From NCBI RefSeq assembly GCF_017348835.2, contig NZ_CP071375.1: DNA of 64,000 nucleotides; one strand, 5' to 3'. Source of the DNA: Escherichia coli. Its GTDB lineage: Bacteria > Pseudomonadota > Gammaproteobacteria > Enterobacterales > Enterobacteriaceae. The position numbers were made by a program. This document shows, piece by piece, positions 3,001-6,000 of this stretch. Each line of letters begins with the position of its first letter. Positions within the stretch are counted from its first letter, which is position 1.

Positions 3001-6000
3001 TGTGCCTGGTCAACTGGCAGCAGTGGCTATCGTGACCAGCGATGGCAACGTCTATAGTGCGGGTGACAGTGATTACCGCTTTGCGCTGGAATCCATCTCG
3101 AAAGTCTGTACGTTAGCCCTTGCGTTAGAAGATGTCGGCCCGCAGGCGGTACAGGACAAAATTGGCGCTGACCCGACCGGATTGCCCTTTAACTCAGTTA
3201 TCGCCTTAGAGTTGCATGGCGGCAAACCGCTTTCGCCACTGGTAAATGCTGGCGCTATTGCCACCACCAGCCTGATTAACGCTGAAAATGTTGAACAACG
3301 CTGGCAGCGAATTTTACATATCCAACAGCAACTGGCTGGCGAGCAGGTAGCGCTCTCTGACGAAGTCAACCAGTCGGAACAAACAACCAACTTCCATAAC
3401 CGGGCCATAGCCTGGCTGCTGTACTCCGCCGGATATCTCTATTGTGATGCAATGGAAGCCTGTGACGTGTACACCCGTCAGTGCTCCACGCTCATCAATA
3501 CTGTTGAACTGGCAACGCTTGGCGCGACGCTGGCGGCGGGGGGTGTGAATCCGCTGACGCATGAACGCGTTCTTCAGGCCGACAACGTGCCGTACATTCT
3601 GGCCGAAATGATGATGGAAGGGCTGTATGGTCGCTCCGGTGACTGGGCGTATCGCGTTGGTTTACCGGGCAAAAGCGGTGTAGGTGGCGGTATTCTGGCG
3701 GTCGTCCCTGGCGTGATGGGAATTGCCGCGTTCTCACCACCGCTGGACGAAGAAGGCAACAGTGTTCGCGGTCAAAAAATGGTGGCATCGGTCGCTAAGC
3801 AACTCGGCTATAACGTGTTTAAGGGCTGATCATGATGAACACGGAAGGTAATAACGGTAACAAACCCCTCGGTCTATGGAATGTCGTTTCCATCGGTATT
3901 GGGGCAATGGTGGGGGCGGGGATCTTCGCGCTGCTGGGGCAGGCTGCGTTGCTAATGGAAGCCTCGACATGGGTCGCCTTTGCTTTTGGCGGTATTGTGG
4001 CGATGTTTTCCGGTTATGCCTATGCGCGTCTGGGGGCGAGCTATCCCAGCAATGGCGGCATTATCGACTTCTTTCGTCGCGGATTAGGCAACGGCGTCTT
4101 TTCGCTGGCGCTCTCGTTACTGTACCTGTTGACGCTGGCGGTGAGCATCGCCATGGTCGCCCGTGCTTTTGGCGCTTATGCCGTGCAGTTTTTGCATGAA
4201 GGCAGCCAGGAGGAGCACCTTATTTTGCTCTACGCGTTGGGGATCATTGCGGTGATGACGCTTTTCAACTCCTTAAGCAACCATGCGGTAGGGCGGCTGG
4301 AAGTGATCCTCGTCGGCATTAAAATGATGATCCTGTTATTGCTGATTATTGCCGGTGTCTGGTCGCTGCAACCGGCGCATATTTCCGTCTCTGCGCCCCC
4401 CAGCTCCGGTGCGTTCTTCTCCTGTATCGGGATAACCTTCCTTGCCTATGCGGGCTTTGGCATGATGGCGAACGCGGCGGATAAAGTGAAAGATCCGCAG
4501 GTCATTATGCCACGGGCGTTTCTGGTGGCGATTGGCGTTACCACGTTGCTTTATATCTCGCTGGCGCTGGTTTTGCTAAGCGATGTATCGGCATTAGAGT
4601 TAGAAAAATATGCCGATACCGCCGTAGCGCAGGCAGCTTCTCCGCTGCTCGGGCATGTGGGTTATGTGATCGTCGTCATCGGCGCTTTACTGGCGACGGC
4701 TTCAGCCATCAACGCGAACCTGTTCGCCGTGTTTAACATCATGGACAACATGGGCAGCGAACGCGAACTGCCGAAGCTAATGAATAAATCCCTGTGGCGG
4801 CAGAGTACCTGGGGCAACATCATTGTCGTGGTGTTGATTATGCTGATGACGGCGGCACTAAATTTAGGCTCACTCGCCAGCGTTGCCAGCGCCACCTTTT
4901 TGATTTGCTATCTGGCGGTGTTTGTGGTGGCGATCCGCCTGCGTCATGATATTCACGCCTCGTTGCCGATTCTTATCGTAGGTACGTTGGTGATGTTGTT
5001 GGTGATCGTTGGCTTTATCTACAGCCTGTGGTCCCAGGGCAGCCGTGCGTTGATATGGATTATTGGTGCAATCTTACTCAGCCTTATTGTGGCAATGGTC
5101 ATGAAGCGTAATAAAACCGTATAACACCTCTCTGTGCGCAGTACTTTCTGTACTGCGCCTTTGTCTTTAATTCAAATTACCTTTCTTATTCCTTTAATAA
5201 ATAAGTCACAAAAAAATGATATATACGCGATAAATCTGTGATGCTAATCACTTATTACCGTGGATTATTCTTAATGTGTATGATGGTAATCTAAAAGTCG
5301 TAGTGTATTCTAAATAAATAACGTATAAGCTTTTTAGCTGCATTTCTTTGCCCATATCAATGATCGACAAAAGAGATGCACAAGTTATTACCCTTCTTAA
5401 TAAAATGAGACTGGTTATAAAAACCAGTTAAAATAATGACCTGGAAGGAAGTGACTTACCTATGGCGCGATTCCAGTTTAAAAACCGTAAAAATAATGGA
5501 CTTATTTTTTTAATAAGTTTTATGGTGATGGGAGAAGCTGCAATTGCTGCACCGCTGCCACAATGGGCGAATGCCCCAGCGGTAACGCCAGTTGCCCGAT
5601 TATCTTTACAGGAAAGTATATTACGCGCCTTTGCGCGAAATCCCGACGTCACTCAACAGGCGGCGCAGATAGGCATTGGCGAAGCGCAAATTGATGAAGC
5701 CAAAAGTGCCTGGTATCCGCACGTTGGATTAACCGGCAACGCGGGGCCGTCCCGACAAACGGACTCCAGCGGCAGGCTTGATAACAACGTTTCGTATGGC
5801 ATAACCCTGACACAACTGGTGTATGACTTTGGTAAAACTAACAACGATATCAATCTGCAAACTGCCGCCCGTGACAGCTACCGCTTTAAATTGATGGCTA
5901 CCTTAACCGATGTTGCAGAGAAAACGGCGACTGCCTATATGGAAGTCAGTCGTTATCAGGCTTTGTGCGATGCGGCTCAACGCAATATTCACTCGCTGGA

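What the first reader, a model, noticed from the sequence alone, without database searches (positions are those of the whole stretch)
5169..5461. AT-rich ~300 bp leader upstream of the secretion island looks like a silenced, horizontally acquired promoter
The stretch between the ybaT terminator and the TolC-like gene is visibly AT-rich with A/T tracts, next to GC-rich island coding DNA. Such regions are typical H-NS nucleation sites, suggesting the adhesin operon is repressed under laboratory conditions and induced by specific cues such as temperature or biofilm signals.
Basis: inference. Interest (0 to 1): 0.4.

Follow-up and report, generated by a model that had tools for sequence, protein, structure and literature searches.

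The report
Promoter and leader of OI-28 adhesin operon
The AT-rich 300 bases are the already-studied promoter and 144-base mRNA leader of an E. coli giant-adhesin secretion operon (O-island 28), which switches on in stationary phase rather than staying silent in the laboratory; a role for the silencer H-NS is plausible but not shown.

Summary
Window 5169-5461 has 29.7% G+C and lies between the ybaT terminator and a TolC-family gene that opens a 59% G+C type I secretion/giant-adhesin cluster. The locus is E. coli O-island 28 (OI-28: tolC28, siiEA, ABC transporter, membrane fusion protein).

The stretch is a working, published regulatory region:
- The RstA box shown by EMSA and ChIP-qPCR in EHEC is present exactly at 5168-5181.
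- The Cappable-seq start site of EDL933 maps to 5318, with -10 TATTCT at 5306-5311. Its signal is 0-4 in exponential cultures and 9-65 in stationary cultures.
- tolC28 is 55-fold RpoS-dependent.

The operon is therefore growth-phase induced in ordinary media, not silent.

New here:
- A lac-quality CRP-like site lies at 5237-5252 (-73.5) and is conserved across three Escherichia species.
- Two conserved hairpins sit in the 144-nt leader.
- K-12-type E. coli carry one shared 27.2-kb deletion of this island, not an empty insertion site.

On H-NS, no occupancy data were reachable. In EAEC 042, tolC28 rises 5-fold in an hns mutant, but so do the upstream genes glsA-ybaT, so an indirect route (RpoS, read-through) is not excluded. 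Four of the window's twelve intergenic regions are about as AT-rich.

The parts
5136..5168 (+). ybaT intrinsic terminator: 9-bp stem GCGCAGTAC/GTACTGCGC with a 5-nt loop, then the T-run CTTTGTCTTT. The left end of the K-12-type deletion (5152|5153) cuts through its right arm.
   Evidence: Terminator scan. Alignment with K-12 derivative EPI300 stops at 5152. Every island-less genome sampled stops at the same base.
5168..5181 (+). RstA box TAATTCAAATTACC, published as -294..-280 from the tolC28 ATG. Its centre is 143.5 bp upstream of the mapped start site.
   Evidence: Exact sequence and exact distance to the ATG at 5462 match PMC12758282: EMSA lost when the box is removed, RstA ChIP-qPCR about 6-fold, lacZ fusion down in the rstA mutant. 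It is polymorphic in 2 of 8 E. coli and diverged in Escherichia sp. E1V33 and E. whittamii.
5237..5252 (.). Candidate cAMP-CRP site TGTGA-tgctaa-TCACT (inferred, not tested experimentally). Centre at -73.5 from the start site.
   Evidence: One mismatch to TGTGA-N6-TCACA. About 1% of shuffles of the leader give such a site. Both half-sites are invariant in 10 aligned leaders, while the spacer differs in the other two species (gcta to ttct).
5306..5311 (+). -10 hexamer TATTCT of the main tolC28 promoter. The -35 region is poor.
   Evidence: bTSSfinder box for TSS 579751 in the EDL933 Cappable-seq supplement, mapped by offset with no indels. It agrees with the BPROM -10 in PMC12758282. The block 5280-5311 is almost invariant across 10 sequences.
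5318..5318 (+). Main transcription start site (A); stationary-phase induced.
   Evidence: EDL933 Cappable-seq TSS 579751 equals window 5318. Signals: exponential LB 0, M9 4.1, acid 0, salt 2.4; stationary LB 64.7, M9 53.0, acid 31.3, salt 9.2.
5336..5336 (+). Minor second start site, seen in stationary M9 only.
   Evidence: EDL933 TSS 579769.
5184..5275 (-). Two weak minus-strand start sites, at 5184 and 5275, inside the AT-rich tract.
   Evidence: EDL933 TSS 579617 (classed downstream-antisense to ybaT) and 579708 (classed orphan).
5318..5461 (+). 144-nt 5' untranslated leader of tolC28.
   Evidence: Runs from the TSS at 5318 to the ATG at 5462. Folds better than shuffles (z -2.96, 1 of 200 as good).
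5339..5380 (+). Leader hairpin 1: 11-bp stem (5339-5349 with 5370-5380) and a 20-nt loop.
   Evidence: Predicted in every fold. The stem is unchanged apart from one U-A to U-G. The loop sequence is completely different in the other two species, and the E. coli SNPs at 5353 and 5366 fall in the loop.
5410..5428 (+). Leader hairpin 2: ACUGGUU-auaaa-AACCAGU.
   Evidence: Across species, 4 of 7 pairs change on one side and all stay paired as G-U on the + strand. The same changes would be A-C mismatches on the minus strand. One E. coli lineage breaks one pair (G5413A). The scan's minus-strand 'terminator' at 5428-5410 is this same hairpin read backwards.
5443..5451 (+). Shine-Dalgarno purine run GGAAGGAAG, predicted to be mostly base-paired.
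   Evidence: Sequence. It pairs with CCUUCU at 5392-5397 in the consensus fold or with the early coding region in longer folds. Unpaired probability is 0.19-0.35 with no rise from 20 to 45 C.
5462..6817 (+). tolC28 (Z0608/ECs0540), the outer-membrane component and first gene of the operon.
   Evidence: Pfam OEP. RefSeq annotation 'TolC family outer membrane protein'.
6920..29136 (+). siiEA giant BapA-related adhesin gene, here split by IS4 (24319-25744) into ORFs of 5808 and 1115 aa.
   Evidence: BapA_N, Big_13, FG-GAP and RTX repeats, and an IS4 transposase ORF. Colinear with the intact 6925-aa gene of PapM-32-1 apart from a 1426-bp insert with a 13-bp duplicated target.
29140..32474 (+). ABC transporter (29140-31302) and HlyD-type membrane fusion protein (31299-32474). 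The MFP stop overlaps the cueR ATG (ATGA at 32472-32475). The right end of the K-12-type deletion is 32374|32375.
   Evidence: Pfam. The MFP C-terminus aligns to the very end of HlyD. K-12 keeps the last 100 bp with a 1-bp frameshift. All island-less genomes start matching at 32375.

Best explanation
The AT-rich stretch is the complete cis-regulatory region and 5' leader of the OI-28 type I secretion/giant-adhesin operon (tolC28-siiEA-ABC-MFP).

Shown by published experiments on sequences 5-6 bases different from this one:
- Transcription starts at window 5318 from a promoter with -10 TATTCT and a poor -35.
- It is nearly off in exponential growth and strongly on in stationary phase.
- It depends 55-fold on RpoS.
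- It responds to Ca2+.

Inferred here:
- cAMP-CRP probably co-activates from a conserved lac-like site at -73.5. That would make this a csiD-like 'starvation plus sigma-S' promoter (about 45% likely).
- The 144-nt leader carries two conserved hairpins and a partly occluded ribosome-binding site, which may add post-transcriptional control (about 30%).
- H-NS probably occupies the 300-bp tract in growing cells and helps keep it off (about 50% as a direct effect). If so, RstA, which sits too far upstream (-143.5) for classical activation, may act partly as a counter-silencer.

The operon is not silent in laboratory culture.
For: - Identity of the locus: the leader is 100% identical in four E. coli genomes and 95-99% in 958 of 5426 genomes, always between ybaT and a TolC-family gene followed by siiEA.
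- RstA: exact box at the exact distance, with EMSA, ChIP-qPCR, lacZ and qRT-PCR in PMC12758282.
- Start site and growth-phase pattern: Cappable-seq supplements of PMC10469882, mapped with 6 SNPs and no indels.
- RpoS: Z0608 55-fold and Z0609 20-fold, wild type over rpoS mutant, in stationary LB.
- Sakai ECs0540 and ECs0541 rise by 3.5 and 4.1 log2 on entry to stationary phase in glucose minimal medium.
- CRP-like site.
- Leader structure.
- H-NS: composition and the hns-mutant RNA-seq of EAEC 042, which carries the island with 5 SNPs in the leader.
- An AT-rich upstream tract is a shared trait of homologous TolC-first adhesin operons in Enterobacter, Budvicia, Rosenbergiella and others. The lowest 200-bp G+C within 700 bp upstream is at or below 0.30 in 23 of 28 loci, against 0.43-0.60 in the genes.
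Against: - None of the experiments was done on this strain, and here the adhesin gene is broken by IS4, so the operon's output is probably defective.
- The -10 lacks the C at -13 typical of sigma-S promoters, so RpoS dependence may be indirect.
- The CRP site has no experimental support, and -73.5 is one base off the canonical -72.5 spacing.
- Leader hairpins rest on three species-level lineages with no double compensatory change.
- The RstA box is a weak match to the RstA consensus I recall (TACATNTNGTTACA) and is not conserved outside E. coli.
- H-NS evidence is indirect: single libraries, equal derepression of upstream glsA-ybaT, and a motif match at chance level (58 found against 44 expected in the window).
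Confidence: 0.8

Rival explanations
1. The tract is an H-NS nucleation site that keeps a horizontally acquired operon silent in laboratory culture until temperature or biofilm signals lift the silencing.
For: - 70% A+T over 300 bp and a TpA-rich sequence.
- tolC28, siiEA and the ABC gene are 4.5-5.1-fold up in the hns mutant of EAEC 042, and tolC28 is 8.8-fold up in the hns hns2 mutant. In that double mutant its RPKM (337) exceeds that of upstream ybaT (280), so not all of it can be read-through.
- RstA binds far upstream (-143.5), as counter-silencers often do.
- Weak start sites on both strands inside the tract, as in AT-rich H-NS targets.
Against: - The operon is not silent: there is a strong stationary-phase start-site signal in four media at 37 C, log2 10.8 on arrays, and 38 RPKM in wild-type 042.
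- The island body is 59% G+C, so H-NS cannot spread. H-NS regions in O157 Sakai average 1643 bp, against about 310 bp here.
- The motif match is at chance level and there is no A-tract phasing.
- Four of 12 intergenic regions in the window are equally AT-rich.
- The hns effect could come through raised sigma-S (established knowledge: hns mutants accumulate RpoS).
- In-silico melting shows no temperature effect.
Confidence: 0.15
2. An ordinary activator-dependent promoter with no direct H-NS role. The AT-richness is simply what long E. coli promoter regions look like, and the hns-mutant effect is indirect, through more RpoS, derepressed glsA-ybaT and read-through of the ybaT terminator.
For: - The leader ranks third of 12 intergenic regions, with core-genome regions equally AT-rich.
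- glsA rises 4.8-fold and ybaT 6.7-fold in the same hns library.
- 55-fold RpoS dependence.
- Specific activator sites are present.
Against: - tolC28 exceeds ybaT in the hns hns2 mutant.
- By established knowledge, a 300-bp tract at 30% G+C is the kind of DNA H-NS binds genome-wide (low G+C of the Sakai sites).
Confidence: 0.35
3. The leader's main regulatory content is post-transcriptional. The conserved hairpins and the occluded ribosome-binding site would form an RNA switch (thermometer, CsrA or small-RNA target) that gates translation of tolC28.
For: - Fold z-score of -2.96.
- Stems conserved while a loop is free to vary, and 4 G-U-preserving changes on the + strand only.
- The last 90 nt before the ATG are almost invariant between E. 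coli and E. whittamii, although the TolC proteins are only 70% identical.
- Two GGA motifs sit in the Shine-Dalgarno region.
Against: - No Rfam family matches.
- There is no double compensatory change.
- SD accessibility does not rise with temperature in silico.
- The SD's pairing partner changes with the length of RNA folded.
- Leaders of other genera are unrelated.
Confidence: 0.25
4. The tract encodes its own product, either a small protein or a small RNA.
For: Six ORFs of 21-74 codons overlap it. Weak minus-strand start sites exist.
Against: - No Rfam hit at E up to 1.
- The ORFs are short, mostly with GTG or TTG starts, and lie across the variable loop or the indels between species.
- The minus-strand reading of the hairpin is broken in other species.
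Confidence: 0.03

Closest known systems
tolC28 (Z0608) regulatory region of O-island 28 in EHEC O157:H7 EDL933 (Niu et al., Gut Microbes 2025, PMC12758282)
   Same: It is the same locus: between ybaT and the TolC-family gene, 337 bp, 6 SNPs and no indels. The RstA box, -10 element and start-site base are identical.
   Different: The strain differs; the best matches are pig and baboon isolates. Here the adhesin gene is split by IS4, whereas in EDL933 it carries an internal stop. The paper did not use the mapped start site, or consider RpoS, CRP, H-NS or the leader RNA.
SPI-4 siiA promoter of Salmonella enterica (from my own knowledge: an H-NS-silenced type I secretion/giant-adhesin operon activated by HilA/SprB)
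   Same: A type I secretion operon for a giant Ig-repeat adhesin, preceded by an AT-rich regulatory tract. RefSeq names the adhesin here 'SiiEA'.
   Different: As I recall, SPI-4 is AT-rich throughout. OI-28 coding DNA is 59% G+C, so only the leader could bind H-NS. The gene order differs (TolC first here). The activators differ (RstA, RpoS). I did not compare the sequences.
csiD promoter of E. coli K-12 (from my own knowledge: sigma-S-dependent, needs cAMP-CRP bound upstream at about -68.5, modulated by H-NS and Lrp)
   Same: Stationary-phase and starvation induction, strong RpoS dependence, a poor -35, and a good CRP-type site upstream at a class I distance.
   Different: CRP dependence is untested here, the site is at -73.5, and there is an additional far-upstream RstA input.
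Classical H-NS nucleation regions (proU, bgl, LEE1; from my own knowledge)
   Same: Low G+C and TpA-rich DNA at a promoter, with derepression in an hns mutant.
   Different: No high-affinity motif above chance, no phased A-tracts, only about 310 bp flanked by G+C-rich DNA, and no occupancy data.

Membership tests
OI-28 tolC28 promoter/leader of E. coli | Lies between the ybaT terminator and the TolC-family first gene of the siiEA type I secretion cluster | tested here: met
   Annotated regions of PapM-32-1, EDL933 and 042. Pfam on the window ORFs.
OI-28 tolC28 promoter/leader of E. coli | RstA box TAATTCAAATTACC at -294 from the ATG | tested here: met
   Exact at 5168-5181, and 5462-5168 = 294.
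OI-28 tolC28 promoter/leader of E. coli | Start-site base and -10 TATTCT as mapped in EDL933 | tested here: met
   Identical sequence at 5306-5318. The start site itself was measured in EDL933, not in this strain.
H-NS-silenced xenogeneic promoter | G+C well below the genome average over the bound region | tested here: met
   0.30 over 293 bp. But only about 310 bp is low, and 4 of 12 intergenic regions are similar.
H-NS-silenced xenogeneic promoter | AT-rich island body that allows the H-NS filament to spread | tested here: not met
   Island coding DNA is 0.592 G+C.
H-NS-silenced xenogeneic promoter | High-affinity nucleation motif (TCGATAAATT-like) | tested here: inconclusive
   One 2-mismatch match at 5227-5236. 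The window has 58 such matches against 44 expected.
H-NS-silenced xenogeneic promoter | H-NS occupancy in vivo | not testable with these tools
   Sakai ChIP-chip exists (E-TABM-819), but no site list is in the held text.
H-NS-silenced xenogeneic promoter | Derepression in an hns mutant | tested here: inconclusive
   5.1-fold (hns) and 8.8-fold (hns hns2) in EAEC 042. These are single libraries, and upstream glsA-ybaT rises 4.8-6.7-fold too.
H-NS-silenced xenogeneic promoter | Silent in standard laboratory culture | tested here: not met
   Stationary-phase start-site signals of 9-65; log2 10.8 in stationary LB; 38 RPKM in wild-type 042.
H-NS-silenced xenogeneic promoter | Recently acquired by horizontal transfer | tested here: inconclusive
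   The composition is atypical (59% G+C). But absence is a shared deletion, and the cluster is at the same site in two other Escherichia species.
cAMP-CRP class I activated promoter | Match to TGTGA-N6-TCACA | tested here: met
   TGTGAtgctaaTCACt, 1 mismatch; about 1% of leader shuffles give such a site.
cAMP-CRP class I activated promoter | Site centred near -61.5, -72.5, -82.5 or -92.5 | tested here: inconclusive
   Centre is at -73.5 from the start site at 5318, one base off.
cAMP-CRP class I activated promoter | Dependence on crp/cya | not testable with these tools
   No data found. Induction on glucose exhaustion in Sakai is consistent with it.
RNA thermometer | Shine-Dalgarno occlusion that melts between 30 and 42 C | tested here: not met
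   Predicted unpaired probability of the SD goes from 0.29 at 30 C to 0.21 at 42 C.
Any Rfam RNA family | Covariance-model match | tested here: not met
   No match at E up to 1 in 4900-5800.

The most novel reading that the evidence does not exclude
OI-28 would be a minimal counter-silencing system. A G+C-rich adhesin island carries a single 300-bp AT-rich patch that H-NS holds shut in growing cells. It is opened by the combination of sigma-S, cAMP-CRP at -73.5 and RstA bound 143 bp upstream, acting as a counter-silencer rather than a classical activator. A conserved structured leader then gates translation. In addition, the 'island' is ancestral to Escherichia, and 82% of E. coli, including K-12, carry one shared 27.2-kb deletion that fused cueR to the last 100 bp of the secretion gene.
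Probability: 0.2. Interest if true: 0.4.

Novelty: already known. Interest (0 to 1): 0.25.

Why it matters
The operon contributes to early gut adherence of EHEC O157:H7 (PMC12758282), so knowing when its promoter fires matters for colonisation models.

Putting the public start-site map next to the published RstA box changes the picture. The box lies 143 bp upstream of the start, and the promoter is a stationary-phase, RpoS-dependent one with a likely CRP site. This suggests testable experiments: crp, rpoS and hns epistasis on a leader-only reporter.

The deletion scar shows that 'O-island 28' is a loss in K-12-type strains rather than a gain in O157. It also shows that cueR in K-12 sits directly behind a remnant of a secretion gene.

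None of this is surprising to a specialist. It is tidy annotation rather than a new kind of element.

Tried and rejected
1. Rfam scan of 4900-5800 at E up to 1: nothing.
2. Small ORFs: six of 21-74 codons, none conserved or convincing.
3. H-NS high-affinity motif search: 58 matches against 44 expected in the window, so the match at 5227-5236 carries no weight.
4. A-tract phasing and curvature: no signal at lags 10-11.
5. RNA thermometer idea: SD accessibility does not rise with temperature.
6. The minus-strand 'terminator' at 5428-5410: rejected, because the cross-species changes keep pairing only on the + strand.
7. The two sigma-70-like hits from the promoter scan (5377-5406, 5405-5434): at chance level (2 found, 1.9 expected) and not at the mapped start site.
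8. H-NS occupancy in the literature. The Sakai ChIP-chip paper has no site list in the held text. A preprint on xenogeneic silencing does not mention the locus. The EHEC modulon tables place Z0608 and Z0609 in an uninformative component. The Aar/H-NS paper's supplements have no hit, and the H-NS2 follow-up has no held supplement.
9. Leaders of TolC homologues in other genera: AT-rich but unrelated in sequence, so they give no footprinting beyond Escherichia. The CRP site is absent there.
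Full report
**What is there.** The window is E. coli chromosome. It reads copA (-), glsA, ybaT, then a TolC-family gene (5462-6817), then a giant Ig-repeat/RTX adhesin gene, an ABC transporter, a HlyD-type membrane fusion protein (MFP), and cueR. The 337-bp gap between ybaT and the TolC gene is 100% identical in four E. coli genomes and 95-99% identical in 958 of 5426 complete genomes. It always sits at this position, and RefSeq names the adhesin 'BapA-related adhesin SiiEA'. O157:H7 EDL933 has it as Z0608 onwards, which is O-island 28.

**The observation.** The finding's coordinates have 29.7% G+C, and only 0.08% of equally long windows in the 64 kb are as low. The island coding DNA is 59.2% G+C and the left core 55%. 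There are 18 A/T-only runs of 5 bases or more, and TpA steps are nearly three-fold enriched. The ybaT terminator (5136-5158 plus a T-run) is present. So the description is accurate. It is less unusual than it sounds, though. Among the 12 intergenic gaps of at least 100 bp in the window this one is third lowest, and four are at or below 34.5%, including core-genome ones. There is no 10-11 bp phasing of AA/TT.

**It is a characterised regulatory region.** Niu et al. 2025 (PMC12758282) showed four things in EDL933. RstA activates tolC28 and the rest of OI-28. RstA is enriched about 6-fold on this region in ChIP-qPCR. It shifts the fragment in EMSA, and the shift is lost when the box TAATTCAAATTACC at -294 to -280 is removed. 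Expression responds to Ca2+ through RstA. That box is present exactly at 5168-5181, 294 bp before the ATG at 5462.

The Cappable-seq atlas of EDL933 (PMC10469882, supplements) gives a gene start site for this gene at 579751. The signals are 0, 4.1, 0 and 2.4 in exponential LB, M9, acid and salt cultures. They are 64.7, 53.0, 31.3 and 9.2 in the matching stationary cultures. A minor start at 579769 and two weak minus-strand starts are also listed. EDL933 and the window differ at 6 bases in 340 with no indels. So the main start is window 5318 (an A) and the -10 is TATTCT at 5306-5311, which agrees with the BPROM -10 of Niu et al..

Z0608 is among the 100 most RpoS-dependent genes of EDL933 in stationary LB (55-fold; log2 10.8 against 5.0), and Z0609 is 20-fold dependent. 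In Sakai, ECs0540 and ECs0541 rise by 3.5 and 4.1 log2 at the transition to stationary phase in glucose minimal medium. The operon is therefore growth-phase induced in ordinary laboratory media, not silent.

**What the start site adds.**
- The RstA box centre lies at -143.5. That is far from where OmpR/PhoB-type activators usually contact RNA polymerase (established knowledge). The box is polymorphic in 2 of 8 E. coli leaders and diverged in the two other Escherichia species.
- At 5237-5252 there is TGTGA-tgctaa-TCACT. As I recall the lac sequence, these are the same half-sites as the lac CRP site. It has one mismatch to the consensus, and about 1% of shuffles of the leader give such a site. 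Its centre is at -73.5.
- In Escherichia sp. E1V33 and E. whittamii both half-sites are kept while the spacer changes, and all eight E. coli leaders are invariant there. This is a candidate class I CRP site. It would fit induction on glucose exhaustion, but it is untested.
- The block 5280-5311, which holds the core promoter, is almost invariant.

**The leader RNA.** The 144-nt leader folds better than shuffles (z -2.96). Two hairpins recur in every prediction.
- The first is 5339-5349 paired with 5370-5380. Its 20-nt loop is completely different in the other species, and the E. coli SNPs in it fall in the loop.
- The second is 5410-5416 paired with 5422-5428. Four of its seven pairs change on one side across species, and all remain paired as G-U on the + strand only.
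- There is no double compensatory change, and one E. coli lineage breaks one pair, so support is modest.
- The Shine-Dalgarno run (5443-5451) is predicted mostly paired. Its partner depends on the length folded, and accessibility does not rise with temperature.
- No Rfam family matches and no small ORF is convincing.

**H-NS.** No occupancy value for this site could be reached. The Sakai ChIP-chip paper reports about 440 H-NS regions averaging 1643 bp, but no list is in the held text. The high-affinity motif match at 5227-5236 is at chance level.

EAEC 042 carries the island with 5 SNPs in the leader. Table S1 of PMC5861252 gives read counts for wild type and mutants. I recomputed RPKM from reads, and the values match the table's garbled columns.
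- tolC28 RPKM: 38.5 in wild type, 58.7 in hha hha2, 195.9 in hns (5.1-fold), 82.7 in hns2, and 337 in hns hns2 (8.8-fold).
- siiEA is 4.7-fold and the ABC gene 4.5-fold up in hns.
- The upstream acid-resistance genes glsA and ybaT rise 4.8- and 6.7-fold in the same library.
- These are single libraries.

hns mutants are known to accumulate RpoS (established knowledge), and this promoter is 55-fold RpoS-dependent, so the effect may be indirect. In the double mutant tolC28 exceeds ybaT, so read-through alone cannot explain it. I put direct H-NS repression at about 50%. If it occurs, it is confined to the 300-bp patch, because the 59% G+C body cannot carry a filament.

**Horizontal acquisition.** Genomes without the island match the window up to 5152 and again from 32375, every one sampled at the same two bases. 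In K-12, the left arm of the ybaT terminator is joined directly to the last 100 bp of the MFP gene, with a 1-bp frameshift, and cueR follows. PGAP annotates that remnant as a partial pseudogene. The encoded C-terminus (…[28 protein letters not shown]) aligns to the very end of HlyD, so the remnant is real.

The absence state is therefore one shared 27,222-bp deletion, not an empty attachment site. The cluster sits next to ybaT in Escherichia sp. E1V33 and E. whittamii too. Its high G+C still suggests a foreign origin at some earlier time.

Homologous TolC-first operons in Enterobacter, Budvicia, Rosenbergiella and others have unrelated upstream tracts that are also AT-rich. The lowest 200-bp G+C within 700 bp upstream is at or below 0.30 in 23 of 28 loci. 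So an AT-rich leader goes with this operon type generally.

**State of the operon in this strain.** A 1426-bp IS4 with a 13-bp target duplication (24319-25744) splits the adhesin gene into ORFs of 5808 and 1115 aa. The first piece lacks the RTX repeats and C-terminal signal. Decay is common elsewhere as well:
- an internal stop in EDL933;
- a frameshift and stop in 042;
- a tolC28 frameshift in DA33137;
- an IS1 inside the leader hairpin in ECNB21-M121.

**Verdict.** The stretch is the known OI-28 promoter and leader. Novelty is low. The additions here are the geometry of the promoter, a candidate CRP site, conserved leader hairpins and the deletion scar.

Noticed in passing
window 5152|5153 and 32374|32375; L002 1951-2053: K-12-type E. 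coli (about 82% of complete genomes) lack the island through one shared 27,222-bp deletion. It joins the left arm of the ybaT terminator to the last 100 bp of the HlyD-type MFP gene. 'O-island 28' is therefore a loss in K-12, not a gain in O157. In K-12 the ybaT terminator is truncated, and whatever drives cueR lies in a secretion-gene remnant.
   Followed up: yes
window 32472-32475: The MFP stop codon overlaps the cueR start codon (ATGA). In island-bearing strains the copper regulator cueR looks translationally coupled to the last secretion gene. In EAEC 042, however, cueR RNA does not follow tolC28 in the hns mutant (1.45-fold against 5.1-fold).
   Followed up: partly
window 24319-25744: An IS4 (1426 bp, 13-bp target duplication, 442-aa transposase ORF at 24403-25731) splits the siiEA adhesin gene into 5808-aa and 1115-aa ORFs. 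The adhesin is probably non-functional in this strain.
   Followed up: yes
L034 (EDL933) 16354 onward; L041 (042) 35873 onward: RefSeq marks siiEA as a pseudogene in EDL933 (internal stop) and in 042 (frameshift and internal stop). The two 'RTX proteins' rtxA28 and rtxB28 of the 2025 paper look like two pieces of one interrupted gene.
   Followed up: partly
window 32880-35340: A second non-K-12 insert lies between cueR and ybbJ. It holds a 338-aa YadA-anchor (trimeric autotransporter) ORF on the minus strand (33590-34606), a lipoprotein-like ORF (about 33130-33512, minus strand) and a small plus-strand ORF (34974-35336). Its promoter gap at 34607-34973 is as AT-rich as the finding (G+C 0.31).
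   Followed up: no
L040 about 696-760 (equivalent to window about 5421): In strain ECNB21-M121 an IS1 is inserted inside the leader hairpin, 40 bp before the tolC28 start. In DA33137 tolC28 is frameshifted. The locus is decaying independently in several lineages.
   Followed up: partly
window 32375-32879 against island-less genomes: cueR plus the MFP remnant is only about 94% identical between island-less genomes and this window, but 97-100% among most island-bearing ones sampled. The presence and deletion alleles look like two old haplotypes.
   Followed up: no
window 60915-60930: Another 1-mismatch CRP-type site (TGTGATATTCATCACC) lies in the 316-bp AT-rich gap before the 555-aa ORF at 61017.
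   Followed up: no
L007 (E. whittamii) 2156-3769: The leader is about as conserved between E. coli and E. whittamii as ybaT is, yet the TolC protein is only 70% identical. This points to a mosaic or recombination boundary near the start codon, or to unusually strong constraint on the leader.
   Followed up: no
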